A stretch of 64,000 nt of DNA. It comes from Alphaproteobacteria bacterium (lineage in GTDB: Bacteria > Pseudomonadota > Alphaproteobacteria > UBA9219 > RFNS01). The notes under the pieces were generated by a model. The model did no database searches. It was not told the DNA's origin and was given only the letters and a program-made list of their open reading frames with translations. This document shows positions 8,504-27,111 of this stretch, piece after piece (positions within the stretch are counted from its first letter, which is position 1; each line of letters starts with the position of its first letter). A program made the position numbers and the translations under genes. The stretch spans positions 42,416 to 106,415 of the forward strand of contig JBBCGY010000001.1 in the NCBI GenBank assembly GCA_037200005.1, read 5' to 3'.

Positions 8504-11500
8504 ATGGTCGCTGACATTCAATACACCCAGCCGGAACCGAATTATGACGGATTCCGCGAAGCGCATGTTGAAGAAGCAACTTTCGATTGGCTCTCTGGGC
8601 TTGGCTGGACACTCGCGCATGGGCCGGATTTGGCACCGGAAGGCAAAGCCCCGGAGCGGGCCAGTTATGGCGACGTGCTGTTGTTGGGGCGGTTGAGGAC
8701 AGCCTTGGCCGCGATCAACCCGCAACTCCCCGCCGATGCGATTGACGACGTGGTGCGTAAGATTATCGCAGTCGAAATGCCGTCTTTGGTCGAAGAAAAC
8801 CGGCGCTTGCATAAACTGATGGTCGATGGCGTGGCTGTGCAATACATGCAGGCCGACGGCACGATCAAAAACGACATCGCGTGGCTGATCGACTGGGAAA
8901 ACAAAAAGAACGATTGGCTGGCCGTCAATCAATTCACGGTCATCGAAGAACGCAACAATCGCCGCCCCGACGTGGTGATGTTTATCAACGGTTTGCCCCT
9001 TGCCGTTATTGAATTGAAGAACGCGGGAGACGAAAACGCGACAATCGAAGGCGCGTTCCGCCAGACGCAAGCTTACAAGCAATTGATCCCTTCTCTGTTT
9101 CGCACGAACGGCATACTGATTATTTCCGACGGACTGAAAGCCCGCATCGGCAGCCTGACCGCAGATTATGAGCGTTTCATGCCATGGCGCACGGTGGATG
9201 GGGCCGGTGTCGCGGCCAAAGGAACGCCCGAATTACACACAATGATTCACGGCGTTTTTGAGCAAGGGCGTTTTCTGGAGTTATTGCGCCGGTTCACCGT
9301 GTTTCAAAGCAACGGCAAAGATATTTTCAAAATCGTAGCAGGATATCACCAGTTCCACGCCGTAAAGCTCGCCGTTGCCAGCACCATCGACGCAACGGCC
9401 AGTGAAGGAAATCGCAAAGTCGGCGTCATCTGGCATACGCAAGGATCGGGCAAAAGCCTGTTGATGGCATTTTATGCGGGCAGCGTGATTGCCAATCCTG
9501 CGATGGCCAATCCGACTCTGGTTGTGCTGACCGACCGGAATGATCTGGACGACCAGCTTTTTTAACACTTTCAGCCTATCTCGTGATCTTATCCGCCAGA
9601 CGCCCGCGCAAGCGGGAGATCGCGATGAATTGCGGAAGCTTCTGGCGGTATCATCTGGCGGCGTTATCTTTACGACCATTCAAAAATTTCTGCCCGCTGA
9701 TAGTGAAAAAACTTTCCCGCTGTTGACTGACCGCAAGAATGTCATCGTCATCGCCGATGAAGCGCACCGCAGCCAATATGGCTTCAAGGCCAAGTTGGAT
9801 AAAAAGTCGGGCGAATTAGCTTATGGTTTTGCGAAACACCTGCGCGATGCGCTGCCGAATGCGTCCTTCATTGGCTTTACAGGAACGCCTATTGAGAAAG
9901 CAGATGTCAATACGCCCGCCGTATTCGGCGATTATATTGATGTCTATGATATTCAACGCGCGGTCGAAGACGGCGCGACGGTGCCAATCTATTACGAAAG
10001 CCGCCTAGCCAAACTCCAGCTTGACGAAGAGGAAGTCAAAAATCTTGATGCTGAGGTCGAAGAACTGACCGAAGACGAAGAATCCAGCGAGCGCGAGCGT
10101 AAGAAAAGCAAATGGTCGCGCGTTGAAGCCCTGTGGGAGCCGAAACACGCTTGGCTCAAGTAGCCGCCGATATTGTTCAGCATTTTGAGAACCGTATCAG
10201 CGCCTTAGACGGCAAAGGCATGACCGTATGCATGAGTCGCCGTATTTGCGTGGCGCTCTATAACGAGATTATTAAATTACGGCCCGCATGGCATTCAGAC
10301 GATGACGCGCAAGGCGCTATCAAGATTGTGATGACGGGCAATATCGCCAACGATCCGCCTGAATGGTTGAAACATACGGGCAGCAAGGCGCGCCGTGATT
10401 TCCTGGCAAAGCGGGCGCGCGACGCTAAAGACCCGCTAAAACTTGTTATCGTTCGTGATATGTGGCTTACGGGCTTTGATGCGCCCTGCATGCACACGAT
10501 GTATGTCGATAAGCCGATGCATGGTCATGGCTTGATGCAGGCCATTGCCCGTGTAAATCGCGTATTCCGCGACAAGCCAGGCGGCTTGATCGTTGATTAT
10601 ATCGGGATTGCCCATAATCTGAAACAAGCTCTCTCTATTTATTCCCCCGGCGACCGCGAAGAAGTCGGCATTGACGAGCAGCAAGCCGTCGCAGAGATGA
10701 TGCGCCGCTATGAAATCGTCCGGGATATGTTTTATGGATTCGATTATATGCGCGCGCTGCACGGCACACCGGCTGAACGCTTAGTGCTGATGGCCGAGGC
10801 TCTGGAGTGGATTCTCGATTTGCAGCAACGTGAAGCTGCAAAAGAACAGACCGAACAAGCCAGGAAAGAGGTGCGCCGCAAATTCTCAGACGCCGTTGTT
10901 GGCTTATCGCGCGCCTATGCGCTGGCCGCAACCTCGCCAGAAGCGGGGAAAATTCGTGATGAAGTCGGTTTCTTCCAGGCTATTCGTGCAGCCCTGGCAA
11001 AAAATGAGCCGGGCAAAGGTAGCACACAGGCGGAAATCGATGTGGCCGTCCAACAAATGGTCAGTCGTGCCGTGGTGTCAACGGAGATTGTCGATATTCT
11101 GGCGGCGGCAGGCATTAGAACCCCGGATATATCCATCCTCTCAGATGAATTTCTGGCAGAAATTCAAGGCATGAAGAAGCGTAACCTTGCATTGGAAGCC
11201 TTACAGAAACTCATCAATGGAGAAATAAAATCCCGCATCAAATCGAACGTGGTGCAATCTAAGAAATTCAGCGAACGACTGGAAGCCGCCGTCCGGCGCT
11301 ATCATAACAACGCTATAACTGCCGCGCAGCTTTTGGAGGAGCTGATTGCCATCGCAAAGGATATTAAAGCTGACCGCGAACGAGGAGAAGAACAAGGACT
11401 TAGCGAAGAGGAAATCGCTTTTTATGATGCTCTGGCTGAAAATGAAAGCGCATTGCAGTTGTTGGGCGATGAGAAATTACGAGTGATTGCTACTGAACTG

Positions 11501-11680
11501 GTTGTCTCCGTTCGCAATAATGTGTCTGTTGACTGGATGCACCGCGATAGCGCCCGCGCCAAGTTGCGCATCGAAGTCAAAAAGATTCTCAAGAAATATG
11601 GCTATCCGCCAGATTTACAGGATGCAGCGGTGCAACTGGTGTTGCAGCAGGCCGAAGTTTTGGCCCCACTCTGGGCATAA
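8504..11680 (+). pseudogene. hsdR: type I restriction endonuclease subunit HsdR, two frameshifts
   Basis: Three consecutive ORFs (8504..9565, 9540..10163, 10133..11680) each carry bona fide HsdR sequence (DEAH box DEAHRSQYG, helicase C, C-terminal domain). An extra T in the T6 run at 9558-9563 gives DQLF*. A missing G near 10131-10136 makes expected ...[13 protein letters not shown] read EALWEPKH. Confidence 0.85.
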
Positions 11681-11772: not shown

Positions 11773-12903
11773 TCAAAGCGCCAGCCGGGGCCGGATTAGC
11801 GACAAAGGCCGGGCAGTGGAAAGCTGGAGGCCAACAGCTTCGTTTGGAACATTGGAAAAATCGGTAATAAGCGGCAGCATGGCGTTAGGGCCAAGGGCGC
11901 GTGGTGAGGCACCTAGTTCTTTAAGAGCGGAAACAATTTCCGGTTCATTTAGCGCATGAATGCGCATAAGGGGTTGCGTAGTGTCAGGAATCCATTTCCT
12001 GCGCGAGACTTCATCGCGGCCCGTCGAGATAAGTGCCGCGACCACGTCCTTGAGTTTGTCGCCTTTCGGCAGATTGCCGTTGCTGGTGATTTGAGCGCGG
12101 ACAATCGGCTCGCCCAGGAAGGTCGAAATGGCTTCCGTAAAACTGGCGGCGATTTTCTGATTGCCGTCCTCACTTTGCCAATTCGCCAGGAACACATTTG
12201 GCAAGCTGGAGTCTTTGCCGGGTTTCGCGGCGAAGTCCGCGAGCTGGATTGCAACTCGTGAGCGGCCCGTTTCAATGGGCGCATCGCCGATAAATTCCAG
12301 AACGGCGCTATCGTCCGGCGCTCCCATCGTCGCACCGAGTTTCTTGAAGATGCCGGTCATGGCCGCATTGCCGCCCGCATATTCGCCGACGCGGCCGCGC
12401 GAGACGAGGCCATAGGGCGAATAGCCTTGTTCGCGGCTGACGGATCGCCGGATTTTCTCGTAGATAAAATGCGAGCCAAGTCCAATGCCATTCGGGTATT
12501 CCGCGCTTTTTGTGCGATTACGGAATTCCTGGGATAGTTCCGGCGACACATAGGTATCTTCGCCATAGATAGCAGGATAATGGCGGAAATCCCGGCCATT
12601 GCGTTCCGTGAGAACGGTCGGAAACTCGATTGAGCCACCGGCGAGTTTGGGGCTGCAATTTTCCCACTCCACGATGGCGAAATAAGCCTGAATTTTATTT
12701 TTCTTGATGGCCTCGATAACTTTGCCGAATTTGGCGTTATCAGCGGACGCTCCATGCGTCACGGCTTCACTTTCGACGATTCTATAAAGAATCTCATCAA
12801 GCGCCATATGATGAACGACGTCCGTACCGTTCATGCGCACGATGCTGGCTTTGGCGTTTCCCGGCAGCAGACCGGGCATATTATCGAGCGCAACGGAAGA
12901 CAT
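11773..12903 (-). CDS. protein of unrecognised family (376 aa), paralog of 24000..25298
   Basis: Intact ORF with SD AAGGGGA. Its start lies 2 nt after the XRE gene stop. Long blocks are shared with the 432-aa paralog (HYPAIYGEDT, YPNG[IL]GLG, IAASFT..IST..G.PIVR.Q.TSNGNLP, MRIHAL..PEIV.ALK.LGA.PR.LGP). Confidence 0.7.
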   Translation of the reverse strand: MSSVALDNMPGLLPGNAKASIVRMNGTDVVHHMALDEILYRIVESEAVTHGASADNAKFGKVIEAIKKNKIQAYFAIVEWENCSPKLAGGSIEFPTVLTERNGRDFRHYPAIYGEDTYVSPELSQEFRNRTKSAEYPNGIGLGSHFIYEKIRRSVSREQGYSPYGLVSRGRVGEYAGGNAAMTGIFKKLGATMGAPDDSAVLEFIGDAPIETGRSRVAIQLADFAAKPGKDSSLPNVFLANWQSEDGNQKIAASFTEAISTFLGEPIVRAQITSNGNLPKGDKLKDVVAALISTGRDEVSRRKWIPDTTQPLMRIHALNEPEIVSALKELGASPRALGPNAMLPLITDFSNVPNEAVGLQLSTARPLSLIRPRLAL

Positions 12904-12905
12904 GA

Positions 12906-13556
12906 TTATATTTTCCCCTTGTCGTCGGGGATCGAAGCATTTTCCCAGAATGATTCAAATTGCTCGACATATCTTTCGGCCAAGGGCTTGGAGTGTATCG
13001 AAACGACTTCGACATTATGATCGCTGCGATGCACCGCCTGGGCGATATAGTCATTATAGACGTAATAGGGAATGAGGATTTTCGTCGTCTTATCCAGCCA
13101 GCGATATTCGCAATAGCTGGCGGAGAAATTATAGTCGCCATCCAGGATAAGAACGCGGGCGTCAAGATTCGGAAGCTTGCTCATTCTTTCCATATGCTCG
13201 GTCGCATAATCTTGCGCATAGGAAAGGGTCTTGCCGTCGCTGGAATTAAACTGGCGAATGCGTCCACCGTCTTTCAGCGTTTCGTATATATGATCGAGGA
13301 ATTGTCGGTATCCGGCTTTGCCCGAAAAAACCCTGACTTGGTTTCTCCGCATCCGAACGCCCTCGTCATCCAGGAATTCGACGCCGTGCCGGTCGAAAGC
13401 ATTGGTTATGCTGGCGATGGTCTTCTCATGCGGTTGTACCGTATCGGCCTCGATTTTGCTCACGGTCACGCGGGTAAGCCCGGCCTCCCTAGCCAAGTCT
13501 TCCGCTTTCCATTCCAGTAAGCTGCGCGCTGCGCGAATTTGACGCCCGGTAATCAT
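12906..13556 (-). CDS. XRE-family HTH regulator with uncharacterised C-terminal domain (216 aa)
   Basis: N-terminal HTH: GRQIRAARSLLEWKAEDLAREAGLTRVTVSKIE. It is the first gene of a two-gene minus-strand unit. Confidence 0.75.
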   Translation of the reverse strand: MITGRQIRAARSLLEWKAEDLAREAGLTRVTVSKIEADTVQPHEKTIASITNAFDRHGVEFLDDEGVRMRRNQVRVFSGKAGYRQFLDHIYETLKDGGRIRQFNSSDGKTLSYAQDYATEHMERMSKLPNLDARVLILDGDYNFSASYCEYRWLDKTTKILIPYYVYNDYIAQAVHRSDHNVEVVSIHSKPLAERYVEQFESFWENASIPDDKGKI

Positions 13557-13817
13557 AAAGTTAGCACTAGCATATGGTTTAGTTAAAAATAGATAACAAT
13601 CGAGATAACTAAAATTGGCAATAACATATTAATATTTGTAAAAACATGCCCTGTCAATTCAGAAACATTAGTTTCATGTAAAATTTACTGATACCATAAG
13701 TATATTCTTCTTGATTCCCAGTCGGCTTTGCATTTATGTTCCCAAATATTGGTAATGCCTAATGGTTGAAATTAGCTCGATTAAGCCATTTAAAGCGATT
13801 TTCAAGGGGAATTTCAG

Positions 13818-13991
13818 ATGACCAATTCATTTAACGCTTATGTCATGCGCCAGGGCGAACCGGCCATTACCGCCATCATCGAAAATTGGGAAAGGCTTGT
13901 CGGCTTGCGGGCCGAGGCCGAAACGCCGCTTGAGCAGCGCTGGGCGGCGATGATGCATGGTTATGAGCCACAGGCAATGGCAGTCGCATGA
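13818..13991 (+). CDS. small hypothetical protein (57 aa), first gene of a coupled four-gene operon
   Basis: ATG at 13818 follows AAGGGGA. Its stop overlaps the next start (ATGA). It falls below the ORF-track length cutoff. Confidence 0.45.
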   Translation: MTNSFNAYVMRQGEPAITAIIENWERLVGLRAEAETPLEQRWAAMMHGYEPQAMAVA

Positions 13992-14278
13992 GCCGGAAAG
14001 CCGAAAAACCTTTCAGCCCGGTTGACGAGATGCAGCTTTCTCAGCCGATGGGCAATCGAACCGCCGAACATTTCCGCGATGCCCTGGATGATTTGGAGCA
14101 TGAGGCGACCGCGCAGGACGCAAAAATAAAGCAATTGCGCCAAGCTATTCTGCAACGCGCACAAGAACTCGACACTACCGTTTGCCAATCCTGGCTGGAT
14201 TCAGAAATCGAAAAAGCGGACCACCTCGCGTTGGAAGCGCGGCTGGAAAAACTCATCAAGTTCCTATCGGAAAAATGA
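13988..14278 (+). CDS. small hypothetical helical protein (96 aa)
   Basis: ATGA overlaps at both ends. The composition looks coiled-coil-like. Confidence 0.55.
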   Translation: MSRKAEKPFSPVDEMQLSQPMGNRTAEHFRDALDDLEHEATAQDAKIKQLRQAILQRAQELDTTVCQSWLDSEIEKADHLALEARLEKLIKFLSEK

Positions 14279-14493
14279 TGATGGCGAATTTTCATGAACG
14301 CCCCATGACATATAAAAAGCTCGTCGCTCGTTACGGCCATGACATGGCTTTCGATTTACTCGTCACTATCGAGAGCCTTGCGAAGATTAAGCACGACATC
14401 ATCGAGATCAACGAAGAAATTCGTCTGCAACGCGCGCTGGAAGTTTTGGACGAGGCGGAATTCGGACAGGCAGATAAAGGCGGGGTCAAATGA
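14275..14493 (+). CDS. small hypothetical protein (72 aa)
   Basis: The start ATG at 14275 overlaps the previous stop, and its stop overlaps the next start (ATGA). Confidence 0.5.
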   Translation: MMMANFHERPMTYKKLVARYGHDMAFDLLVTIESLAKIKHDIIEINEEIRLQRALEVLDEAEFGQADKGGVK

Positions 14494-14738
14494 TTTCCGG
14501 TAATAACATACCCAATAAAAAGCTTGCGCCGCGTGAAATCGAAGTCATGACCTTAACGGCGCGTGGCAAGACGACCACCGAAATTGCAATGCTTCTCTCG
14601 ATTGCCGAGGATACAGTTAAGACTCACATCAAACGATCCTGCCAGAAATTGAACGCGGCCAATAAAACACACGCCGTTGCTCTCGTTATGGCTCGCGGCA
14701 TAATAGAATGTTCCTGTTGTCACCCGAAAGGGGGATAG
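14490..14738 (+). CDS. LuxR/GerE-type HTH protein, DNA-binding domain only (82 aa)
   Basis: REIEVMTLTARGKTTTEIAMLLSIAEDTVKTHIKRSCQKL matches the GerE HTH pattern. Confidence 0.8.
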   Translation: MISGNNIPNKKLAPREIEVMTLTARGKTTTEIAMLLSIAEDTVKTHIKRSCQKLNAANKTHAVALVMARGIIECSCCHPKGG

Positions 14739-14820
14739 AACTGCATTTTTATTTGCGCTACATAGTTGCGGCGCATTGGCGATGAAGTTAGAGTAAATTT
14801 TCGCGAAGGGGAGAACGGCG

Positions 14821-17800
14821 ATGGTGGCACCTGCGAAGAAATTTCACGAAGCGAACGGCGAACTCACCAATGAGGCAGGGGCAACGCGACCGCCGCTCTC
14901 GAGGAACAGCCTCTGGCGGACACTGCGCCCCGGGATCTCGGTGGGAGTAAGCCTCGCGGCAGTCGTCGCTTGCGAAAGCGGCGAACCCAACGCTTCAAAT
15001 GACAACATCGTTTCGATTTCCCAAGCGATAGGCTCTGCGACAATCTATAGCTTGCCTACCAATGTTTTGATGCCCAATGCCATCAATAATCAAAATCTCA
15101 TTGTGGGCCAGGGTCTGCCTTCGATCTATGATGCCAACACGGGAACATTTAGTAGCCTTGAAGTAAACCAGCCTTCGGGGGCGGTCACTTCCTATGCAAT
15201 TAGCAATGCCGGTCACGTTGTCGGCAATTCATTCAATGTTGGGCCGGTTTCCAATTCGGCGTTCATTTCACAGGGCGGACATTTGTCCGATCTATACGCC
15301 GGCAACAACAACGGGGTGACCAGCGTCGCTTACGGCGTCAACAATTATGGCCAAGTCGTCGGCACGATGCCGGTGACGGTCAACGATGCGAACAATAGTC
15401 CACATCCTTTCACGCATGCGTTCTCGTGGCAGGGCAGCGTTACAGACCTTACACCGAACTACTATGGAAATTCAGCCGCCTATGGCATCAACGATGCTGG
15501 GCAGATCGTGGGAACGATAGGAACTGCGGGGGTCAAGTGGCAGGGCGGATCGTCAAGCACGCTGCCGAGCGGCACCAGCACGCCCGCCATGATCAACAAT
15601 GTCGGTCAGATCGTCGGGACATATAGTTCAGGCGGTTCGTCGCACGCTTTCCTTGTGCAGAGCGGCACCCTGACCGATCTCGGAGCCATACAGGGAAGCA
15701 CACCTGTGAGGATCAACAACAAAGGACAAGTTACGGGCGGCTTCTACAACACGGGTGCCGGACAATATTACCCGAGCGTCTGGCAGAATGGCGTCGTGGT
15801 TACGATTCCCACTCTGTCGGGCATTCCCGCAGGCTGGTCTATCACGTCGATAAACGGCATCAATGACAGCGGAACCGTCGTAGGGCAAGGCACGCTTTCG
15901 GGTTCTTCACGGGGTTTTTACCTAACTTCGCCGCAGCTTCTGAACTACGCCATTGCCGGAAAGCCCTACGATCCGAAAGCGAATGGTGGTGAGGATTCGG
16001 CGTCAACCCCGACAGACGATCTATGTGGAACTCATGGCATGTGTGTGCCCAACGCGCAATTGCTGTCGGCCAGCTTGAATTTGAACGATACGCCGATTGG
16101 GTATCAGCCGCCCAAAGGGCCACCAGCCTATATCCGGCTTACATATAATCATCGTGACAGTGTCGCGCCCAGCAGCACTTCCTCGCATGTTGGGCCAAAC
16201 TGGACTCTGAATGTCATTTCTTACATTCAGGATGATCCGGCCAGCCCGGGCCAGAGCGTCACGCGCAACGTGGCGGGCGGCGGTATCGTCGACTACACTT
16301 TTGAGGCAGGGCAGTTCAATACCACCACGGGTGCATTCGGGCCGGAGAAGCAAACCGGGGCGATCTTGAAACGGACTCCCGCGACAGGGTTCAGCGCCAG
16401 TGCTTCCTATGAGCTTTCCTTTCCCGATGGGGCCAAGCAAATATTCTCCTACCCGGATGGAAGCTTCAATTATCCGCGCCGCGCATTCCTGACGGATATC
16501 GTTGATGCCTCAGGCCAGGGCCTGCATTTTGGCTACAATTATCTTCAAGGAACTTTCGGCGCGATCAATTGCACGCCGGGATGTCCGCAACTGCAATCAG
16601 TTTCTGATGCTAATTTCCGTGCAACAAACTTCGTCTACGGTGACGCATCTAATGTCTTGCGCGTGACGCGGATTAATGACCCGTTCGGGCGTCACGCCGA
16701 TTTAGCTTATGATGGCAGCGGACGGCTTTCGTCAATCACGGATGTGATCGGCATTCAATCGTCTTTCACCTATGACACCACCGACCCTACTTTCATCAAA
16801 AAGCTAACGACACCCTATGGCGATAGCAATTTCGTCTTTGGGCAAGATACGGCGACGGATCGTCGTTGGCTCACACTCTCCGATGCCGTGGGCAATACGG
16901 AAAAAGTGGAATACCGGGGCAGCAGCGCCAGCGGCATAGCGGCGTGCGACAAAAACACGAGCGATGCGTCGTGCAGTGTCTCGACCTCCGTGCCGACAGG
17001 CATGCCTAACGGCATCAATAACGCCGATCTCGACAAGCGCAACACCTTTGTCTGGAACAAATGGATGTATGCGAATGGCTATGGCAGCGATTACACGCAG
17101 GCGAATGTTACCCATTGGCTCAAGGACGGTGCGGGCAATCCCGTGGGGATTCCGGAAAGCGTCAAGCCGCTGTACGAATCCCGCATTTGGTATAATTATC
17201 CCGGCCAGAACGATCCTAGCACCCCAGGAACCCTGTCTGTGCCGAGGGCGACGGGCCGCGTGATCACCGATCCGCTTTACGGGCAAGCGCCGCAGAATCA
17301 GGTTTACCAAAGTCAATATAACAGCCTCGGCAAGCCCACCTTGACCGTCGATCCCTACAAGGTTTCAGGCAACAACAATGAAGGCCGAACTACACGCATG
17401 ACCTATGATGCCTCCGGCGTCGATCTTTTGACGGTGGAACAGAAAACCGGCAGCGGAACGCCGGGGACATGGGCGACGATTGCTTCCTACGTCTATACCG
17501 ATCCGACAGAACAGCCCACATCGATCCACAAACCGATCCGCTATACCGACGCGGCGGGGCAAACTTATAAATTCAAATACAATGGCGACGGCCAATTGAT
17601 CTATGCCGCCAATCCCTACAACGATACGACGTATAATGAATATCATCCGTCCGGCAAGCTCCTGCGGACGACCATGCCTGTGCCGAGCGTAAACTGGAAT
17701 ACCATCGATTATGGAACCGATATTAACGGCGCGCCGACGGGGGCGAGCAACAGCAGCGCCCTAAGGGACACCGCCATTACCTACGACTCCGCCGATCGTC

Positions 17801-20202: not shown

Positions 20203-20206
20203 TCCT

Positions 20207-21478
20207 ATGAAAAAGTTTACTCTATTGCTTGTCGCGCTTTGTAGTCTGACAATGTTACCGGCTCATGCCGCTGACCAAGACTCCAAACCACCCGTCATTG
20301 ATATTCCTGCCACGCGAAAAGAGGCGGAGTCTGGAGATGCTCGGGCTCAATATAATCTGGGCATAGCTTATCTCAACGGTTACGGGGTGAAGAAAAATAA
20401 AGATGAAGCTATTGAATGGATTTACAAAGCAGGGAAGAACAATGATGCCCTCGCAATATATTTCTTGGGCAGCGCATATCATGATGGCGACCTTTTGCCA
20501 CAAGACTACGCCAAGGCTATGAAGTGGTATCACAGGTCCGATGAATTATACGGCAGTCCCCTTGCGCAGAATATGCTTGGCGTGATGCACGAAAACGGTC
20601 AGGGGGCTCCACAGAATTATGAAGAAGCGGCTAGGTGGTATCGCAAAGCTGCCGAGAATATTTACGCACCGGCTCAATCCCATCTTGGATTCCTATACTA
20701 CGCTGGACGCGGCGTTCCTAAGGACGATCAAAAGGCTCTATATTGGCTTAAGAAAGCAGCCATACAAAACGATGCGCCAGCAAAGCTTATGCTAGGCATT
20801 ATGCACTATAAAGGCGAAGGAGTGGAAAAGAATTACGTTAAAGCTGTCAGCTATTTTCGCGAAGCCGCAGACGTCGGAATATCGATAGCTGAACGATATT
20901 TGGGAAATATGTATTACCACGGCGAAGGCGTTTCCAAGGATGAAGCCCAGGCTGTGTCTTGGTGGCGCAAAGCCGCCGAACAAGGGGATAGGGAGTCGGA
21001 AAAGATCATAGGTGGTATGTACTATTATGGCACAGGAGTGTCGAAGGATTTTTCCCAAGCCGTTTTATGGTGGCAAAAAGCTGCGGAAAAGGGTGATGTC
21101 GATGCTCAATGCAACTTGGCGAAAGCTTACTATCATGGAGAAGGTATAGGAAAAGATGAAACTCAAGCTGTGTTATGGTGGCGGAGGGCCGCGGCACAAG
21201 GACATGGAGAATCCCTCCTTTATTTAGGACAAGCGTATTTTAGTAGCATAGGCGTATCGCAAGATGATGTGCAGGCTTATATATGGCTAAGCTTGGCGGC
21301 TACAAGAAATCAGTCGTCAGCGGTTGCAACACTCACGGAACTCGAAAAGTCCATGACGCCGGAACAAATCGCTGAAGCCAGAAAACGCGTGGCAGAATGG
21401 AAACCCAAGCCTGAGCCAAAGCCTGCCCCAATAGGGCCAATACCCGAAATTCTAAAAGAAGTCCGTGAAGATTTATGA
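20207..21478 (+). CDS. secreted Sel1-like repeat protein (423 aa), candidate cognate immunity/partner of the Rhs tip
   Basis: Signal peptide MKKFTLLLVALCSLTMLPAHA. About 10 Sel1 repeats (AQYNLGIAYLNGYGVKKNKDEAIEWIYKA...). The start lies 5 nt after the Rhs stop. Confidence 0.8.
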   Translation: MKKFTLLLVALCSLTMLPAHAADQDSKPPVIDIPATRKEAESGDARAQYNLGIAYLNGYGVKKNKDEAIEWIYKAGKNNDALAIYFLGSAYHDGDLLPQDYAKAMKWYHRSDELYGSPLAQNMLGVMHENGQGAPQNYEEAARWYRKAAENIYAPAQSHLGFLYYAGRGVPKDDQKALYWLKKAAIQNDAPAKLMLGIMHYKGEGVEKNYVKAVSYFREAADVGISIAERYLGNMYYHGEGVSKDEAQAVSWWRKAAEQGDRESEKIIGGMYYYGTGVSKDFSQAVLWWQKAAEKGDVDAQCNLAKAYYHGEGIGKDETQAVLWWRRAAAQGHGESLLYLGQAYFSSIGVSQDDVQAYIWLSLAATRNQSSAVATLTELEKSMTPEQIAEARKRVAEWKPKPEPKPAPIGPIPEILKEVREDL

Positions 21479-22668
21479 TCTCGACTTCGAGGATGCATTT
21501 GGGCAATGCGACGAGCTTCACCAGCACGCACTATCCGAGCGGCGGGCTGTATAGCTTTAACTCGACCTACAACACGTCGAACCAGATGACGGTGGCGAAC
21601 GGCAACGCGCTGATCTACGACCCCTACGGCAACCTCGTCACCCACACGAACTACCGCAGCTTCAAGTACGACGCCGAGAATCGCCTGATCGAGGTCGACT
21701 TCCCCGCCGCGCCCGCCGACAAGGTTGAGATGCAATATGACGGTCTTGGCCGCCGCACGCAGATCAAATCCACCATCGGGGGCGTCGTCACGACGCGGAA
21801 TCTGCAATGGTGCGCCCAGACGACCTCGCCGCCGTTCCAGGGCGCGGCGGAAGAGATATGCGTCGAGCGCGACGCATCGGGCGGCATGCAGCGCATGGTC
21901 TATCCCGAGGGCGAATATCGCGCCAACGGCGACCGGTACTTTTATGAACGCGACCAGACCGGCAACATCCGCGACGTGATGAAGATGGCGGCGGGATTGA
22001 CGACCGCCGCGCGCGACAGCTCCTTCAACTACACGCCTTATGGCGGCGTCGACGGCAGAGACGGCACCGCCGAGCCGCTGCAGCAGTTCGCGGGACTGCT
22101 GTATGAGAAGAACAGCAACCTGTTCCTCTCCCGCACCCGCGCCTACGCCCCATGGATCGGCAGATGGCTCCAGCGCGATCCGATTGGGCAGAATGGCGGC
22201 GCGAATGTTTATGAATATGCGGGGGCGAGTCCGATTAACAAGATTGATCCGAGCGGGCTTCAAAGCATCCAGAATGCGGATGACTGGATAAAACAGAGAA
22301 ATGCCCCTGCTCAGCCGTCAAATAGTATTTGGAGTGAGATCCTAGATAAAATCAGAGAACCTGTGTCTAGAAATGAAGCCATTAGTGAGATTACAAATTT
22401 CCGTCAATCTGGAGAGGCCCAAACTGAAGCACAGATAGCTAGAATGCTCATGGGTTTACCCGTCGAACCTGATTTTTCTGTTGCTATAGGAGGGGCTGAA
22501 GGTGAGCAAGATCTTGGCAGAGCGATTATGTCGGTAGCGCGCGAGATTTTGCGCCGCCCTGCGGAGCAGTCGTGCCCAATAGTTCAGAGAAAAGTCTTCG
22601 GTCAATCCTTGCCACCAAGTGATTTTGGTGACAAGAATCTCCCACTGCCATCTATATTAACCCTTTAA
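21475..22668 (+). CDS. orphan Rhs C-terminal cassette (Rhs core fragment plus alternative toxin tip, 397 aa)
   Basis: The ATG overlaps the Sel1 stop (ATGA). Residues from GNATSF to DPSGL duplicate the main Rhs. They are followed by a different, AT-rich 135-aa tip. Confidence 0.8.
   Translation: MISTSRMHLGNATSFTSTHYPSGGLYSFNSTYNTSNQMTVANGNALIYDPYGNLVTHTNYRSFKYDAENRLIEVDFPAAPADKVEMQYDGLGRRTQIKSTIGGVVTTRNLQWCAQTTSPPFQGAAEEICVERDASGGMQRMVYPEGEYRANGDRYFYERDQTGNIRDVMKMAAGLTTAARDSSFNYTPYGGVDGRDGTAEPLQQFAGLLYEKNSNLFLSRTRAYAPWIGRWLQRDPIGQNGGANVYEYAGASPINKIDPSGLQSIQNADDWIKQRNAPAQPSNSIWSEILDKIREPVSRNEAISEITNFRQSGEAQTEAQIARMLMGLPVEPDFSVAIGGAEGEQDLGRAIMSVAREILRRPAEQSCPIVQRKVFGQSLPPSDFGDKNLPLPSILTL
21502..22257 (+). 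repeat. direct repeat copy 2 (orphan Rhs core fragment)
   Basis: See copy 1. Homology starts at GGCAA(C/T)GCGACGAGCTTCACC and decays right after the codons for DPSG. Confidence 0.9.
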
Positions 22669-22700
22669 AGAATATGAGTGGAATTGAGGGAGTTAATGCA

Positions 22701-23489
22701 ATGAAGAAGATAATTATTATTACGGCATTTGCTTTGATGGTCGCATCAGTTCAAGCTTATGCTGCCGTCCAGGATGAAAAAGCCGACAGTTTGTTAGGGC
22801 ATCGCCTGTCCGAACAATTACGGAAAACAGAAGCGCAGACAACTCTTGCTGCGGGAAAAGAGCTATTTAAAACAGGCGAAGGTCTTTCTAAGGATAATGT
22901 CGATGCAGTAAAGCTATTTCGCGTAGCTGCCAATCTTGGCTCGATGGAGGCACAAACAATTCTCGGCGCTGCATACCTTAGTGGCGATGGAGTGCAAAAA
23001 GATATTCCTGAAGCTTTAAAATGGATACAAAAATCTGCCGCCCAAGGAGACGCCAAGGCTCAACATTTATTGGGTGTATTGTATCATGAAGGATCAGACG
23101 TAAAAAAAGACAATGTGAAATCGTTAAAATGGATACGGAAAGCAGCGGAGCAAGGTTTGCCATCGGCACAATTTAGTCTTGGCACTATGCTTTCTAAAGG
23201 ATATGGAACACACCGAGATGAAACTTCAGCGATGGAATGGTTTCATAAATCCGCAAACCAAGGCTATGCTAAGGCCCAAATTATGCTCGGAATTGCATAT
23301 CACCTAGGTAAAGATATATCTAAAGACGATATTCTAGCTGATCAATGGCTGATATTGGCCGGGGAAAAAGAGGCACGTGATGATTTGGAAAAATCCATGA
23401 CCCCCGAACAAATCGCCGAAGCTATAAACCGCGCGGCGGAATGGAAGCCGAAACCACCAACCAAGCCCGATCCTGAATCCAAACCGTAG
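22701..23489 (+). CDS. secreted Sel1-like repeat protein (262 aa), candidate partner of the orphan tip
   Basis: SD GAGGGA. Signal peptide MKKIIIITAFALMVASVQAYA. Sel1 repeats are present. The C-terminal LEKSMTPEQIAEA...AEWKPKP tail is shared with 20207..21478. Confidence 0.8.
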   Translation: MKKIIIITAFALMVASVQAYAAVQDEKADSLLGHRLSEQLRKTEAQTTLAAGKELFKTGEGLSKDNVDAVKLFRVAANLGSMEAQTILGAAYLSGDGVQKDIPEALKWIQKSAAQGDAKAQHLLGVLYHEGSDVKKDNVKSLKWIRKAAEQGLPSAQFSLGTMLSKGYGTHRDETSAMEWFHKSANQGYAKAQIMLGIAYHLGKDISKDDILADQWLILAGEKEARDDLEKSMTPEQIAEAINRAAEWKPKPPTKPDPESKP

Positions 23490-23513
23490 CGTCTAATTTC
23501 AAGGCAAGAAGCG

Positions 23514-23882
23514 ATGAAATTTATCCGATTTTATGTCGTTGCATCTCTTGTTCTTGGAGTTTTGCAGATTGCTGACGGCATCGTTCTTGTTTCGTATGGC
23601 ACAATAGCAATTAGTAATATTTTCTCTTTGCTCGAAGCTATATGGGTTGTTGTCTCGATGATAGCGCTTTGGTTTTTCATAAAAAGCAAATTTCCAATAT
23701 TCATTCCGACGACATATATTTTATACAATGTTGCTGGCTGGGGATACGGGGCCTATTTGTTTTCACAATTGCAAAATTCTGACCAAATAATCGACGTTCC
23801 TCTTTGGTTTAAAATTGCGGGTATTTGTTTTGGCATCTATTTTGCCTGCGTAAATTTCATATTGTATAAACGAAAACTGTGA
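23514..23882 (+). CDS. small integral membrane protein (122 aa, about 4 TM)
   Basis: Four hydrophobic segments in a very AT-rich gene. The start lies 24 nt after the preceding stop. Confidence 0.6.
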   Translation: MKFIRFYVVASLVLGVLQIADGIVLVSYGTIAISNIFSLLEAIWVVVSMIALWFFIKSKFPIFIPTTYILYNVAGWGYGAYLFSQLQNSDQIIDVPLWFKIAGICFGIYFACVNFILYKRKL

Positions 23883-23999
23883 ATCATCTTCCAGCAAGCT
23901 GGGTAGCGCACTGACTTTGGCGATGAAACTAAATTGATTGATTGCCCCATGCTGGCATTAAATTGTATATTCTGAGGTACATTTTAGGGCGGCATATTT

Positions 24000-25298
24000 A
24001 TGAATCAGGCATTTAACTCCGATCCCTATAAGCGCCTGCCCGGCGGCATCCGGGCGGCGGTTTTGCCGATGCAGGGGGCCGACCTTGTGCATCAAGCCAC
24101 GCTCGGCGCGGCGCTTGAGCATATCATCGGTCATGAGGCTGCGGTTCATGAAGCGGCTTTCCAAAGCCAGCATTTTCACAAGATTTTGAAGGCAAGCGAG
24201 AAAGGCGAAATCAACGTCCTTTTTCTTATGGCCGCGATGCATACATGTTTGCCGAAATTGGCGGGCGCGGCGATTGAACTTCCGACCGTCATTACGAAAT
24301 GGCAAGGCAACGAGTTTAAGCACTATCCCGCCATCTATGGCGAAGATACATGCGTTCTGCCGGAATTCTCCAAAACCTTCCGCGAAAAGACGGCGGGCGC
24401 GCTTTATCCTAATGGCCTGGGCCTTGGCACATGGTTCGCCAAAGAACGGATCGAAGGATCGGTATCGGGCCGCTCTGGGTTCGCGCCTCTCGGCATGGTG
24501 TCCCAAGGCCGTGTTTGTGAATATTCCGGGCATAACGGGCCGATGATTGGACTCTTGAACAAATTCGGTGCAACGACTGCGCCGGACGCGAGCGCAGTCC
24601 TCGAACTCGACGGCCTCACTCCCACGATGAAAAGCCGCTGGCAAGTGCCGGTCGATACTGAAGCCTTGGCCGATCAGAACGGCAAGCCCCTCGACAATAT
24701 TTTCGTAACGAGATGGTCAGGCGAAAGCGGCAAGCAACAAATCGCCGCAAGCTTTACGAAAACCATCTCCACCTTTACCGGCGATCCTATTGTGCGCGTT
24801 CAGCTAACGAGCAACGGCAATCTTCCGAATGGCGATATGCTGCAAAATGTACTATCTTCACTGCTGGCTGCCGGTCACGACGAAATCCGCGAGCGGAAAT
24901 GGGCCATAGCAGGCGAATTAAAAAGTGTTGCTAGCAACCGAAGCCCGATCATCCCGCTCCTTGCTTCCCGGCAGCAGCAAATGGCTGCGCTTCTGTCCGC
25001 AGGGCGAGATGAAATTCTATCCCGGCGTATCGGCATGGATGATTTAAGCCATATTTTCGGCGGCGCGGTTCCGACAATGCGGATTCATGCGCTCAGGAAG
25101 CCGGAAATAGTCGCGGCCTTGAAAGACTTAGGTGCACAACCCCGTATTCTCGGCCCCCACGTCATGCTGCCCGCGATTATGGACTTCGCCAATATGCCGC
25201 AGGAGGCGCTTAATTTCGATCTGCCCCCGGCGAGGCCGCTGAATACGGTCAATCATAGAGGCGCAACCAGCACGCCGCTTTTCTCTCTGGCGGCATAA
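24000..25298 (+). CDS. protein of unrecognised family (432 aa), paralog of 11773..12903
   Basis: Collinear similarity to the 376-aa protein over its whole length. It has an extra ~50-aa segment that duplicates the LL[AS]AG[HR]DEI..R motif. Confidence 0.7.
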   Translation: MNQAFNSDPYKRLPGGIRAAVLPMQGADLVHQATLGAALEHIIGHEAAVHEAAFQSQHFHKILKASEKGEINVLFLMAAMHTCLPKLAGAAIELPTVITKWQGNEFKHYPAIYGEDTCVLPEFSKTFREKTAGALYPNGLGLGTWFAKERIEGSVSGRSGFAPLGMVSQGRVCEYSGHNGPMIGLLNKFGATTAPDASAVLELDGLTPTMKSRWQVPVDTEALADQNGKPLDNIFVTRWSGESGKQQIAASFTKTISTFTGDPIVRVQLTSNGNLPNGDMLQNVLSSLLAAGHDEIRERKWAIAGELKSVASNRSPIIPLLASRQQQMAALLSAGRDEILSRRIGMDDLSHIFGGAVPTMRIHALRKPEIVAALKDLGAQPRILGPHVMLPAIMDFANMPQEALNFDLPPARPLNTVNHRGATSTPLFSLAA

Positions 25299-25584: not shown

Positions 25585-25776
25585 ATGAGCCAGGAAGCAT
25601 ATCGCGTGAAAGAATTCTGCAACCGCTACGCCATTTCAAAAGCCAGCTTCTACCGGGAAACAGCGGCGAAGCGGCTGCATATCCTAAAACGTGGCCGTAC
25701 AACGCTCGTTGCCCGCACCGAAGCCGAACGCTGGTTTGAAAGCCTTGGCCAAGGCCAGCCGCAGCAATCAGCCTGA
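25585..25776 (+). CDS. excisionase/AlpA-like small HTH DNA-binding protein (63 aa)
   Basis: SD AGGGAGGA. The pattern YRVKEFCNRYAISKASFYR...RWF resembles MerR-superfamily excisionases. It lies immediately upstream of the integrase. Confidence 0.65.
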   Translation: MSQEAYRVKEFCNRYAISKASFYRETAAKRLHILKRGRTTLVARTEAERWFESLGQGQPQQSA

Positions 25777-27059: not shown

Positions 27060-27111
27060 AATCGATTTTGCTTCCGGTAGGAATACTCTAAGTGTATGTT
27101 TTTGCTGATGT

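What the first reader, a model, noticed from the sequence alone, without database searches (positions are those of the whole stretch)
11773..25298. Inverted paralogs of an unrecognised protein family bracket the whole LuxR-Rhs-Sel1 module; one copy is paired with an XRE regulator
The 376-aa protein (11773-12903, minus strand) and the 432-aa protein (24000-25298, plus strand) are collinear paralogs. Shared blocks include FPTVLTERNGRDFRHYPAIYGEDT / LPTVITKWQGNEFKHYPAIYGEDT and IAASFTEAISTFLGEPIVRAQITSNGNLP / IAASFTKTISTFTGDPIVRVQLTSNGNLP. A third is MRIHALNEPEIVSALKELGASPRALGP / MRIHALRKPEIVAALKDLGAQPRILGP. They face outward in inverted orientation around an 11-kb block holding the toxin locus. 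The left copy starts 2 nt after the stop of an XRE-HTH gene, so the two form one minus-strand unit with the regulator first. The right copy has no partner and carries an internal duplication of the LL[AS]AG[HR]DEI..R segment. I find no catalytic motif I can name. The arrangement could reflect a regulator-effector pair with an orphan copy, or accessory genes delimiting a mobile toxin cassette.
Basis: seen in the sequence. Interest (0 to 1): 0.6.

Follow-up and report, generated by a model that had tools for sequence, protein, structure and literature searches.

The report
Paired acyltransferase-like genes, mobile island
The two look-alike genes are divergent members of a very rare, unnamed family of double-domain acyltransferase-like proteins that normally sit behind a DNA-binding regulator on small integrating mobile elements of uncultured Alphaproteobacteria. 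They are part of the element's regulator module, not markers that delimit the neighbouring toxin genes.

Summary
The 376-aa and 432-aa proteins are real paralogs (44% identity, E 3e-119), divergently oriented around the Rhs-Sel1 genes. The left copy starts 2 nt after an XRE gene and the right copy has no partner.

No sequence library names the family. A confident AlphaFold model gives a tandem GNAT (acyl-CoA acyltransferase) fold, and the N-terminal domain keeps GNAT motif-A-like and motif-B-like sequence. The XRE partner is a helix-turn-helix fused to a phospholipase-D/TrmB-like domain that lacks the HKD catalytic motif.

In 16 of 20 related loci the same XRE family lies directly upstream. 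The pair sits beside an integrase or a NikA-relaxase in small integrative elements. Paralogous XREs lead other transferase genes or Rhs operons.

In the window both copies lie in one roughly 31.7-kb island bounded by 42-bp repeats of tRNA-Lys. They belong to old short and long subfamilies, so they are not a recent duplication. Rhs is recurrent cargo, not something these genes delimit.

Most likely this is a repressor-led operon encoding an acyl-CoA-dependent acyltransferase. Its substrate and role are unknown. A toxin-antitoxin reading is weakened by orphan copies, a biosynthetic-operon homologue in Chlorobium, and no XRE-enzyme co-variation.

The parts
11773..12903 (-). Left copy, short-form family member (376 aa): tandem GNAT-like protein, second cistron of the XRE operon
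12475..12492 (-). GNAT motif-A-like loop (residues 138-143, N-G-I-G-L-G) at the N-terminus of helix 142-155
   Evidence: Column counts over 73 family members: G141 in 58/73, G/A143 in 70/73, K/R138 in 28/73. Helix position is from the model. The best, non-significant, hhalign segment against a bona fide GNAT aligns IGLGSHFIYE to that protein's QGIGKQLIKE.
12331..12384 (-). Strand beta5 with invariant E174, followed by GNAT motif-B-like N179-x-x-A...K188-L-G-A191
   Evidence: E174 in 73/73, N179 in 48/73 (S in 20), G190 in 47/73, A191 in 52/73. E174 is the only invariant column in the 73-sequence alignment.
12906..13556 (-). XRE-family regulator (216 aa): N-terminal HTH plus C-terminal PLD/TrmB-like domain without the HKD motif; first cistron
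13557..13817 (.). AT-rich divergent intergenic region between the XRE operon and the 57-aa/96-aa/72-aa/LuxR/Rhs operon: candidate switch and operator region
   Evidence: Sequence. The conserved tiny ORFs on the far side are shared with other elements. A TTAAC..AACCAT element lies upstream of the XRE start, as in other loci. No binding was tested.
13818..14493 (+). Small ORFs (57, 96 and 72 aa) that open the divergent operon; the 57-aa and 72-aa products are conserved backbone genes of related elements
   Evidence: blastp matches to L001, L003, L004, L005, L022 and L029, E 1e-6 to 1e-12. No Pfam family.
14490..23882 (+). Cargo: LuxR-type (GerE) regulator, Rhs toxin (1793 aa), Sel1 protein, orphan Rhs C-terminal cassette, second Sel1 protein, 122-aa membrane protein
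   Evidence: ORFs. GerE E 1.3e-17. Rhs and Sel1 gene calls. 300-nt, 99% identical repeat 18990-19289 / 21501-21800.
24000..25298 (+). Right copy, long-form family member (432 aa), orphan (no XRE), immediately upstream of xis-int
   Evidence: ORF. Identical to P0020. Nearest relatives are long forms, P0004 52% and P0005 51%. It keeps all nine columns that are invariant in alignment A1.
24846..25031 (+). Internal helix duplication (residues 283-301 and 326-344) inside the long-form insertion
   Evidence: Self-alignment score 46 against shuffles 21 +/- 4.2. The insertion is shared by all long forms.
25585..25776 (+). HTH_17 (AlpA/excisionase-like) small protein
   Evidence: PF12728 E 1.7e-4, below the family's curated cut-off. 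Gene call in L014.
25844..27031 (+). Tyrosine integrase (395 aa)
   Evidence: Phage_integrase E 6e-29 and Phage_int_SAM_3 E 2.2e-10. Start taken from the gene call in L014.
27109..27150 (+). Right copy of the 42-bp direct repeat that bounds the island; it overlaps the first 39 nt of tRNA-Lys(UUU), 27112-27187
   Evidence: tRNA. A perfect 42-bp match to L027 13764-13723 lies about 4.5 kb left of window position 1; there is no other copy inside the island.
1..11680 (+). Remaining island cargo and backbone in the window: SprT-like, DUF736, and a type I restriction-modification system (HsdM, HsdS, Fic, HsdR split into three ORFs)
   Evidence: Pfam, gene calls, seed matches.

Best explanation
SHOWN
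- The two ORFs are divergent members (short and long subfamily) of a rare, unannotated family of ~380-430-aa proteins with two GNAT-like domains.
- In uncultured Alphaproteobacteria the gene is almost always the second cistron behind one family of XRE regulators. These have an HTH plus a PLD/TrmB-like C-terminal domain with no HKD motif.
- This two-gene module lies next to the integrase or the NikA-relaxase genes of small integrative, often mobilizable, elements.
- It usually faces a divergent set of conserved tiny ORFs.
- In the window both copies lie inside one ~31.7-kb island inserted in tRNA-Lys.

INFERRED
- The XRE protein is the element's repressor-type switch regulator and autoregulates its own operon.
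- The downstream protein is an active acyl-CoA (or acyl-pantetheine) dependent N-acyltransferase. Its N-terminal GNAT domain would bind the donor through the K/R-x-x-G-x-G/A loop. The acidic residues E115/D116 on strand beta4 and invariant E174 on strand beta5 would serve catalysis. The degenerate C-terminal GNAT-like domain would form the acceptor site, as in Eis or N-myristoyltransferase.
- Because it is co-transcribed with the regulator, it would be made while the element sits integrated.
- The most likely role is an accessory trait for the host or element: modification of a small molecule or protein in a resistance, exclusion or defence context. It would be controlled at the level of transcription, not neutralised protein-to-protein.
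- The orphan right copy occupies the usual position upstream of xis-int. It has lost its XRE, or is served in trans by the left one.
- The Rhs-Sel1 cassettes are cargo inserted in the operon divergent from the left XRE.
For: Paralogy.

Fold:
- AF2 model pLDDT 89.2.
- Foldseek gives full-length hits to the tandem-GNAT proteins Eis2 (E 1.7e-6) and N-myristoyltransferase.

Motifs:
- G141 in 58/73, G/A143 in 70/73, E174 in 73/73, and N179...K188-L-G-A.
- E115, D116, S260 and H316 are conserved in at least 90% of members.

Regulator:
- HTH plus PLD/TrmB-like fold.
- No HKD motif in 0/42.

Gene order and context:
- The XRE is directly upstream in 16 of 20 distinct loci, with gaps from -4 to 87 nt (one locus, L022, appears to overlap by 47 nt under the crude ORF calling used).
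- An integrase or serine recombinase, or NikA-relaxase, is adjacent in 8 loci each.
- A minimal ~5.5-kb element holds an integrase, two XREs, this gene and small ORFs.
- The tiny ORFs on the divergent side are conserved.

Island: 42-bp direct repeats and no internal att copy.

Enzyme rather than toxin:
- Orphan copies keep all invariant residues.
- The Chlorobium/Chlorobiaceae homologue (37% identity) sits without an XRE inside a PPTase/FabA/KS/KR/KASIII/ABC-FtsX-LolA operon, i.e. among enzymes that handle pantetheine-linked acyl groups.
- XRE and enzyme identities do not co-vary: Spearman 0.02, and L004 against L008/L012 shows enzymes at 69% but XREs at 26-28%.
- Paralogous XREs lead other transferases: methyltransferase, GNAT, formyltransferase-like and cyclodipeptide-synthase-like.

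Makarova et al. 2009 (PMC2701414) already noted chromosomal GNAT-Xre two-gene modules and favoured a resistance or stress role.
Against: - No sequence library recognises a GNAT domain. Only three weak single-member Pfam hits appeared (E 0.025-0.18), with nothing in the PDB by profile.
- The motif reading is by eye and by column counts. The first motif-A position is K/R in only 28/73, and a ~15-residue helix (121-130) separates strand beta4 from the loop. Donor binding is therefore unproven.
- Global superposition on Eis and N-myristoyltransferase is poor (TM about 0.3).
- The substrate and the biological role are unknown.
- Tight XRE-first coupling on mobile elements is also what a type II toxin-antitoxin pair looks like.
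- XRE binding sites were not identified.
- No relaxase was found in the window's own island.
- The Chlorobi context represents a single lineage, and one of its two genes looks frameshifted.
Confidence: 0.45

Rival explanations
1. Type II toxin-antitoxin or abortive-infection module. The tandem-GNAT protein would be a toxin that acylates aminoacyl-tRNA or another translation component. The XRE protein would be its antitoxin, binding it through the PLD-like domain and repressing the operon. The pair would stabilise the island or abort phage infection.
For: - XRE comes first, with a 2-nt gap or overlapping stop and start codons.
- The module lies on mobile elements next to integrases of several unrelated types, as expected for a portable two-gene cassette.
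- The HTH gives weak hits to antitoxin families.
- Partner enzymes of paralogous XREs include families that act on tRNA or aminoacyl-tRNA: Fmt-like and cyclodipeptide synthase.
Against: - Intact orphan copies exist: the window right copy, L011 with only an XRE remnant, and Chlorobi.
- The Chlorobi homologue sits in a biosynthetic operon.
- There is no XRE-enzyme co-variation, and XRE subfamilies have been swapped between close enzymes.
- The protein is two to three times the size of known GNAT toxins, and its pI is neutral (median 7.0).
- The regulator is a large folded two-domain protein.
- There are no PADLOC hits.
Confidence: 0.2
2. Signal or metabolite circuit. The protein would synthesise an N-acylated small molecule, much as GNAT-fold AHL or N-acyl-amino-acid synthases do. 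The PLD/TrmB-like domain of the XRE would sense that product or the substrate. This would give a LuxI/LuxR-like or inducible-enzyme circuit that gates island genes or excision.
For: - The XRE C-terminal domain resembles the effector (sugar) binding domain of TrmB regulators.
- The Chlorobi homologue lies in a lipid/polyketide-like biosynthesis and export operon.
- A paralogous XRE is paired with a cyclodipeptide-synthase-like gene.
- The XRE operon faces a divergent operon of conserved tiny ORFs, a switch-like layout.
Against: - Cognate signal-receptor pairs should co-diversify, and none is seen.
- The XRE is much more conserved than the enzyme: 55-71% against 35-49%.
- No exporter or other biosynthetic genes accompany the module on the islands.
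- A PLD-like fold can equally serve oligomerisation or protein binding, as in the FAM83 pseudo-PLD hits.
Confidence: 0.12
3. Anti-repressor by covalent modification. The protein would acylate the XRE repressor, or another island regulator, to flip the integration/excision switch. It would be a functional analogue of ImmA in the ICEBs1 immR-immA-int cassette, using acylation instead of proteolysis.
For: - The gene order XRE - this gene - (nuclease) - xis - int in L005, and this gene - xis - int in the window, parallels immR-immA-int. That parallel is from my own knowledge of ICEBs1; the gene orders are.
- The gene is present in the smallest elements, where little else could regulate excision.
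- Paralogous XREs are each followed by a different group-transfer enzyme.
Against: - There is no co-variation between the presumed enzyme and its presumed substrate.
- The Chlorobi homologue works without any XRE.
- I know of no precedent for this mechanism.
- Nothing here tests modification.
Confidence: 0.08
4. The inverted paralogs would mark or mobilise the Rhs toxin block, acting as recombination or accessory genes that delimit a mobile toxin cassette.
For: - The two copies sit in inverted orientation around the Rhs-Sel1 block.
- Rhs genes lie within 10 kb of family members in 4 elements: the window, L001, L003 and L005.
Against: - There is no DNA-level repeat between the copies or their flanks.
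- The copies belong to different old subfamilies.
- Other Rhs-bearing elements have a single copy, and most elements with the gene have no Rhs.
- The fold is an acyltransferase, not a recombinase or nuclease.
- The mobile unit is the whole island, with tRNA-Lys repeats and an integrase.
Confidence: 0.03

Closest known systems
Tandem-GNAT acyltransferases: Eis (Mycobacterium), N-myristoyltransferase, MshD
   Different: There is no detectable sequence similarity, and global TM is only about 0.3. The length and secondary structure leave no room for Eis's third (SCP2-like) domain. Here the motif-bearing domain is N-terminal and carries a helix inserted before the glycine loop. The gene context, an XRE-led operon on an integrative element, is unrelated.
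GNAT-Xre and GNAT-RHH two-gene modules (Makarova et al. 2009, PMC2701414); GNAT toxin-antitoxin systems TacAT, AtaRT and KacAT
   Same: A DNA-binding protein gene is followed by a GNAT-fold gene, forming a compact mobile two-gene module. GNAT-Xre pairs were reported as chromosomal (67 against 0 on plasmids) and of uncertain role, resistance or toxin-antitoxin. KacT and another GNAT toxin are among the fold hits.
   Different: Known GNAT toxins are single-domain, about 160-180 aa, with RHH/DUF1778 antitoxins (my own knowledge). Here the protein has two domains and 376-432 aa. The partner is an HTH plus PLD-like domain of about 216 aa. Orphan copies are tolerated, and partners do not co-vary.
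ImmR-ImmA-Int regulatory cassette of ICEBs1, and lambda cI-rexAB (genes co-transcribed with the maintenance repressor)
   Same: An XRE/CI-type repressor gene is followed by a second gene, lies close to xis and int, and faces a divergent operon. The comparison with ICEBs1 and lambda is from my own knowledge.
   Different: The second gene is not an HEXXH metalloprotease: no Peptidase_M78/DUF955 hit appears. It is not rex-like either. The repressor's C-terminal domain is PLD-like, not an S24 peptidase.
TrmB-family transcription regulators (DNA-binding domain plus C-terminal effector-binding domain)
   Different: The DNA-binding domain here is a Cro/C1-type HTH, not the TrmB winged helix. There is no sequence-level match to any TrmB Pfam family. 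Ligand binding is untested.
Integrative and mobilizable elements (review: Guedon et al. 2017, PMC5704250, found)
   Same: These are small integrated elements with an integrase or serine recombinase, often a NikA-like protein plus a MOB relaxase and ArdC, and variable cargo such as restriction-modification, Fic, Abi, reverse transcriptase and Rhs. They are flanked by direct repeats at a tRNA gene.
   Different: The window's own island shows no recognisable relaxase. The XRE-plus-tandem-GNAT module has not, as far as my searches show, been described as an IME component.

Membership tests
GNAT superfamily (acyl-CoA N-acyltransferase fold) | Mixed alpha/beta fold with the order beta1-alpha1-alpha2-beta2-beta3-beta4-alpha3-beta5-alpha4-beta6 | tested here: met
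GNAT superfamily (acyl-CoA N-acyltransferase fold) | Motif A pyrophosphate-binding loop Q/R-x-x-G-x-G/A at the start of helix alpha3 | tested here: inconclusive
   G141 in 58/73 and G/A143 in 70/73, placed right at the start of helix 142-155, but K/R at position 138 in only 28/73, and a 15-residue helix is inserted after strand beta4. hhalign places the loop on motif A of a real GNAT, but not significantly (E 0.3).
GNAT superfamily (acyl-CoA N-acyltransferase fold) | Significant match to a GNAT sequence profile | tested here: not met
   No Pfam or NCBIfam hit for either window copy. Among 73 members there are only three isolated weak hits: Acetyltransf_1 E 0.025, FR47 0.11 and Acetyltransf_3 0.18. 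The family profile finds nothing in PDB sequences.
GNAT superfamily (acyl-CoA N-acyltransferase fold) | Binds acyl-CoA and transfers the acyl group | not testable with these tools
   This needs biochemistry.
Eis-type tandem GNAT | Two GNAT domains followed by a C-terminal SCP2-like domain | tested here: not met
   Two GNAT-like domains are present (residues ~17-205 and ~219-375), but the chain ends there and no third domain exists. Foldseek E is 1.7e-6 but TM only 0.30.
GNAT-type type II toxin-antitoxin (TacAT, AtaRT, KacAT) | Antitoxin gene upstream, tightly coupled to the toxin gene | tested here: met
   The XRE is upstream in 16/20 loci, with gaps from -4 to 87 nt apart from one apparent 47-nt overlap in L022.
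GNAT-type type II toxin-antitoxin (TacAT, AtaRT, KacAT) | Single-domain GNAT toxin with an RHH (DUF1778) antitoxin | tested here: not met
   The protein has two domains and 376-432 aa. The partner is HTH_3 plus a PLD-like domain, with no RHH.
GNAT-type type II toxin-antitoxin (TacAT, AtaRT, KacAT) | Toxin not tolerated without its cognate antitoxin, and partners co-evolve | tested here: not met
   Intact orphans exist: the window right copy, L011 and Chlorobi. XRE and enzyme identities are uncorrelated, Spearman 0.02. This is indirect evidence; toxicity itself was not tested.
PLD superfamily (XRE C-terminal domain) | PLD-like fold | tested here: met
PLD superfamily (XRE C-terminal domain) | HxK(x)4D catalytic motif | tested here: not met
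   The pattern H.K....D is found in 0 of 42 family members.
ImmR/ImmA-type ICE regulation module | Second gene encodes an HEXXH metalloprotease (ImmA/IrrE, Peptidase_M78) | tested here: not met
   There is no such Pfam hit, and the fold is GNAT. The gene order relative to int is similar.
Integrative (mobilizable) element | Site-specific recombinase plus flanking direct repeats at the insertion site | tested here: met
   Integrase at 25844-27031. 42-bp perfect repeats at the tRNA-Lys 5' half and about 31.7 kb away. G+C is about 50% against about 62% outside the island.
Integrative (mobilizable) element | Relaxase and oriT for mobilisation | tested here: not met
   A NikA-like protein plus a relaxase is found in 8 related loci, but not in the window or its leftward extension L027. 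Unrecognised proteins of 316 and 422 aa remain unassigned.

The most novel reading that the evidence does not exclude
A family of XRE regulators with a dead PLD/TrmB-like domain, each coupled to a different group-transfer enzyme, may form a previously unrecognised modular switch on alphaproteobacterial integrative elements. The coupled enzymes seen are the tandem-GNAT acyltransferase, a methyltransferase, a formyltransferase-like protein, a GNAT and a cyclodipeptide-synthase-like protein. In this reading the enzyme either covalently modifies its regulator or makes the ligand that the PLD-like domain senses. That would decide between quiescence and excision, transfer or cargo (Rhs) expression. 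The tandem-GNAT protein would then be an 'acylating anti-repressor', or a signal synthase of a new kind.
Probability: 0.15. Interest if true: 0.8.

Novelty: new variant of a known kind. Interest (0 to 1): 0.45.

Why it matters
The analysis gives a fold and a testable activity to a protein family that every sequence library leaves blank. It also defines a new regulator architecture: an XRE helix-turn-helix fused to a catalytically dead PLD/TrmB-like domain.

It shows that this pair is a portable core module of small integrative elements that carry Rhs toxins, restriction-modification and other conflict genes in uncultured Alphaproteobacteria.

If the enzyme proves to be a resistance or defence effector, or a modifier of the island's own switch, it would add a new mechanism to mobile-element biology. 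If it is an ordinary regulated acyltransferase, the value is mainly annotation.

The family is very rare: 104 clusters among 1.84 billion representatives, none in plasmid or phage collections. Its general reach is therefore limited.

Tried and rejected
SEARCHES THAT FOUND NOTHING FOR THE FAMILY
- Pfam, NCBIfam, PADLOC, PHROGs and PDB sequence searches of both copies gave nothing for the family, and only the HTH for the XRE.
- A profile of 73 members against PDB sequences gave nothing.
- A per-member Pfam scan gave only three weak GNAT hits among noise.
- hhalign of the N-domain against the C-domain, and against two real GNATs from related loci, was not significant, though the local alignments fall on motif B and motif A.
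- The AlphaFold-database Foldseek library was not available.
- tblastn of the protein against 72,556 plasmids, and of the XRE C-terminal domain against plasmids and phages, found nothing. A pattern scan of IMG/VR also found nothing.
- A metagenome scan added only 6 loci, mostly short.

TESTS OF SPECIFIC IDEAS
- Recombination scars: no direct or inverted DNA repeat links the two copies or their flanks. Only a 27-nt, 85% match was found (2640-2666 / 23930-23956), which I treat as chance.
- Tandem-element hypothesis (two islands side by side): rejected, because no internal copy of the 42-bp att repeat exists.
- Recent in-situ duplication: rejected, because each copy is closer to proteins from other metagenomes than to the other copy.
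- XRE-enzyme co-variation, expected for a cognate toxin-antitoxin or signal-receptor pair: not found.
- Operator search: k-mer comparison of 12 XRE upstream regions gave only a TTAACCA(T)-type element, and it is not present upstream of the orphan copy.
- PADLOC scan of the alternative XRE partners and the unknown island proteins: nothing informative.
- Literature searches for an XRE/tandem-GNAT system or for these elements: no description found.

Full report
**1. The observation**

BLASTP aligns them end to end at 44% identity, E = 3e-119.

ORF 12906-13556 (-) is an XRE/HTH_3 protein (E 1.4e-7). Its stop codon is 2 nt from the start of the 376-aa ORF. An HMM of that XRE family finds no other member in the window, so the 432-aa copy is an orphan. 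It lies 117 nt downstream of a 122-aa membrane-protein ORF.

The internal repeat in the right copy is significant: residues 283-301 against 326-344 score 46, against 21 +/- 4.2 for shuffles. It sits in an insertion of about 50 aa common to all long-form members and is still visible in P0006, P0008 and P0009. The duplication is therefore old and subfamily-wide.

**2. How rare the family is**

Neither copy matches Pfam, NCBIfam, PADLOC, PHROGs or any PDB sequence.
- A word-indexed search of 5.8 billion clusters gave 19 relatives, all 'hypothetical'.
- An exhaustive HMMER pass over 1.84 billion representatives gave 104.
- A scan of one genome for each of 185,579 species gave 9 loci: seven from Alphaproteobacteria MAGs and two from Chlorobium/Chlorobiaceae MAGs.
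- Nothing was found in 72,556 plasmids or in IMG/VR.

The window itself comes from GCA_037975565.1, contig JBBCBH010010965.1, labelled 'MAG: Alphaproteobacteria bacterium'.

**3. What the protein is**

An AlphaFold2 model built on the 21-sequence alignment is confident: pLDDT 89.2, pTM 0.89.
- Foldseek's best full-length hits are tandem-GNAT enzymes: Eis2 at E 1.7e-6 and N-myristoyltransferase at about 1e-5. Global TM is only about 0.3.
- The secondary-structure order shows a complete GNAT domain (residues ~17-205) followed by a second GNAT-like domain that lacks helices alpha1 and alpha2 (~219-375).

In a 73-member alignment the only invariant residue is E174 on strand beta5 of domain 1. E115, D116, S260, W304 and H316 are conserved in at least 90% of members.

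Column counts show a glycine loop [K/R]138-x-x-G141-x-G/A143 exactly at the N-terminus of helix 142-155, with G141 in 58/73 and G/A143 in 70/73. After E174 comes N179-x-x-A...K188-L-G-A. These match GNAT motifs A and B as I know them.

The reading is not statistically validated. Pfam GNAT profiles give only three weak single-member hits, and hhalign against two real GNATs is non-significant, although it places IGLGSHFIYE on the other protein's motif A.

I therefore infer, but have not shown, that the N-terminal domain binds an acyl-CoA-type donor and that the C-terminal domain is a degenerate acceptor-side domain, as in Eis or N-myristoyltransferase.

**4. What the partner is**

The XRE family is larger, with at least 169 clusters. 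All members share about 150 C-terminal residues.

An AF2 model (pLDDT 86.7) gives two parts:

The HKD motif is absent in 0 of 42 members. The domain is therefore a non-catalytic sensor, oligomerisation or protein-binding module.

**5. Gene neighbourhoods**

Twenty distinct loci have a visible upstream region.
- A member of this XRE family lies directly upstream on the same strand in 16, with gaps from -4 to 87 nt (L022 appears to overlap by 47 nt under my crude ORF calling).
- The exceptions are the window's right copy, L011 (a 93-aa XRE remnant) and the two Chlorobi loci.

The pair lies next to a tyrosine integrase or a serine recombinase in 8 loci, and next to NikA-like plus MOB relaxase (often with ArdC and DUF736) in 8 loci. 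Surrounding cargo includes type I restriction-modification with Fic, Abi_2, reverse transcriptase, MmeI, a Rosmer-like pair and Rhs/YD-shell toxins.

Two elements are minimal:
- L008: serine recombinase, XRE, this gene, three small ORFs, relaxase and NikA, lying between argG and housekeeping genes.
- L029: about 5.5 kb, with an integrase, two XREs, this gene and small ORFs.

The recombinases are of unrelated types, so the XRE-enzyme pair behaves as a portable module. It faces a divergent operon that opens with two tiny conserved ORFs: the window's 57-aa and 72-aa products match L001, L003, L004, L005, L022 and L029. No Pfam family fits them. The layout resembles a repressor / counter-operon switch.

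**6. The XRE family leads other genes too**

Paralogous XREs in the same elements are followed by different genes:
- an MTS-type methyltransferase (L001);
- a GNAT (L003);
- a Formyl_trans_N-like protein (L004);
- a cyclodipeptide-synthase-like protein (L023, PF16715 E 6.7e-9);
- a 316-aa unknown protein (L027, L028);
- Rhs operons: L001 with a 127-nt gap, and L005 through three small ORFs.

In the window the Rhs operon (57 aa, 96 aa, 72 aa, LuxR, Rhs, Sel1, orphan Rhs C-terminal cassette, Sel1) is divergent from the left XRE. What recurs beside Rhs cargo is therefore the regulator family. The acyltransferase-like gene occurs with Rhs in only 4 of 18 alphaproteobacterial loci.

**7. The island in the window**

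G+C is about 50% up to roughly 27-31 kb and about 62% beyond. tRNA-Lys(UUU) is at 27112-27187, and the integrase ends at 27031.

A perfect 42-bp repeat, 27109-27150 (the first 39 nt of the tRNA), recurs at L027 13764-13723, which is about 4.5 kb left of window position 1. No other copy lies between them.

The island is therefore a single unit of about 31.7 kb. Its gene order, left to right, is:
- XRE(P0183) with the 316-aa protein, and HTH_26 with the 422-aa protein (left of the window);
- SprT-like and DUF736;
- type I restriction-modification with Fic;
- the 376-aa copy and its XRE (both on the minus strand);
- the Rhs cargo;
- the 432-aa copy, the HTH_17 protein and the integrase.

The right copy's best relatives are long forms (P0004 52%, P0005 51%) and the left copy's are short forms (P0001 51%). 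Each is closer to those than to the other copy, at 44%. No DNA repeat links them. They are co-resident members of two old subfamilies, not a recent duplication and not cassette borders.

The right copy keeps every column that is invariant in alignment A1 and sits where the gene usually sits, upstream of xis-int (compare L005).

**8. Toxin or enzyme?**

The XRE-first, tightly coupled, mobile two-gene layout is what a type II toxin-antitoxin pair looks like, and GNAT toxins exist. Four results weigh against that reading:
- Intact orphan copies occur.
- In two Chlorobi MAGs the homologue (37% identity to the left copy) has no XRE. It is embedded, with conserved synteny, in an operon of PPTase, FabA-like dehydratase, ketosynthases, two SDR ketoreductases, two KASIII/chalcone-synthase-like enzymes and an ABC/FtsX/LolA-like exporter. 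These enzymes handle pantetheine-bound acyl groups, which fits an acyltransferase.
- XRE and enzyme identities are uncorrelated across 12 loci (Spearman 0.02). L004 against L008/L012 shows enzymes at 69% but XREs at only 26-28%, so partners have been swapped.
- The proteins are large and near-neutral (median pI 7.0), unlike known small GNAT toxins.

The same lack of co-variation also weakens a cognate signal-synthase/receptor model.

Makarova et al. (2009, PMC2701414) described chromosomal GNAT-Xre two-gene modules and considered a resistance or stress role more likely than a toxin-antitoxin system. This is the nearest published category.

**9. Conclusion and limits**

Well supported:
- the paralogy;
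- the GNAT-type two-domain fold;
- the HTH plus dead-PLD regulator;
- the conserved XRE-then-enzyme operon;
- its residence in integrative (mobilizable) elements;
- the single-island structure in the window.

Inferred:
- acyl-CoA binding and catalysis;
- XRE as the operon and switch repressor;
- expression in the integrated state;
- an accessory (resistance, exclusion or defence-type) role.

Unknown: the substrate, any ligand of the PLD-like domain, and whether the orphan copy is controlled in trans.

'Delimiting a mobile toxin cassette' does not.

Noticed in passing
window 8504-11680: The type I restriction subunit HsdR is split into three overlapping ORFs (353, 207 and 515 aa). A Logan contig from what looks like the same organism carries it intact at 1058 aa (L017). 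This points to frameshifts from assembly error or recent decay.
   Followed up: partly
window 27109-27150 and L027 13723-13764; window 27037-27058 and L027 13587-13608: The island is bounded by 42-bp perfect direct repeats covering the 5' half of tRNA-Lys, not the more usual 3' end. A second, 22-nt perfect repeat lies just inside both ends and may be an integrase arm site.
   Followed up: partly
window 27184-27249: Immediately after tRNA-Lys there is a perfect 19-bp hairpin (27184-27223). It is followed by a 17-nt inverted copy of the tRNA T-arm (27233-27249 against 27157-27173). This may be a terminator plus a tRNA-fragment remnant.
   Followed up: no
window 18990-19289 and 21501-21800: A 300-nt, 99% identical direct repeat links the end of the Rhs core to a downstream 397-aa orphan Rhs C-terminal cassette, each followed by its own Sel1-repeat gene. 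This is the classic displaced-toxin-tip arrangement.
   Followed up: no
L027 9995-13578 and L028 9995-12268 (same genome, two places): A second XRE of the same family (P0183, 223 aa), with a 316-aa unknown protein and an HTH_26 gene, sits at the far end of the island. The same module is duplicated about 900 kb away, next to an integrase fragment. No library names the 316-aa and 422-aa proteins.
   Followed up: partly
L018 1-7900; L021 1750-14810: Chlorobium/Chlorobiaceae MAGs carry a homologue inside a type II FAS/PKS-like operon: PPTase, FabA-like, KS, two ketoreductases, two KASIII/CHS-like enzymes, and an ABC-FtsX-LolA-like exporter. In L021 the gene appears frameshifted.
   Followed up: partly
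L023 11650-13003: An XRE of the same family is followed by a cyclodipeptide-synthase-like gene (PF16715, E 6.7e-9), convergent with the XRE-plus-tandem-GNAT pair.
   Followed up: no
window 13580-13610 and the upstream regions of XRE genes in L005, L008, L012, L020, L022, L023 and L026: A TTAACCA(T)-type element lies about 35-55 nt upstream of the XRE start codon in 6-8 of 12 loci. From memory it resembles the alphaproteobacterial CtrA half-site. It is absent upstream of the orphan right copy.
   Followed up: no
window 13818-13991 and 14275-14493: Two tiny ORFs (57 and 72 aa) that open the operon divergent from the XRE are conserved in at least six other elements. No known domain fits them. They may be the Cro/Xis-like side of the switch.
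   Followed up: partly
L005 10075-11499: In one element a 474-aa Cas4/PD-(D/E)XK plus RNase_H-like nuclease is inserted between the family gene and xis-int.
   Followed up: no
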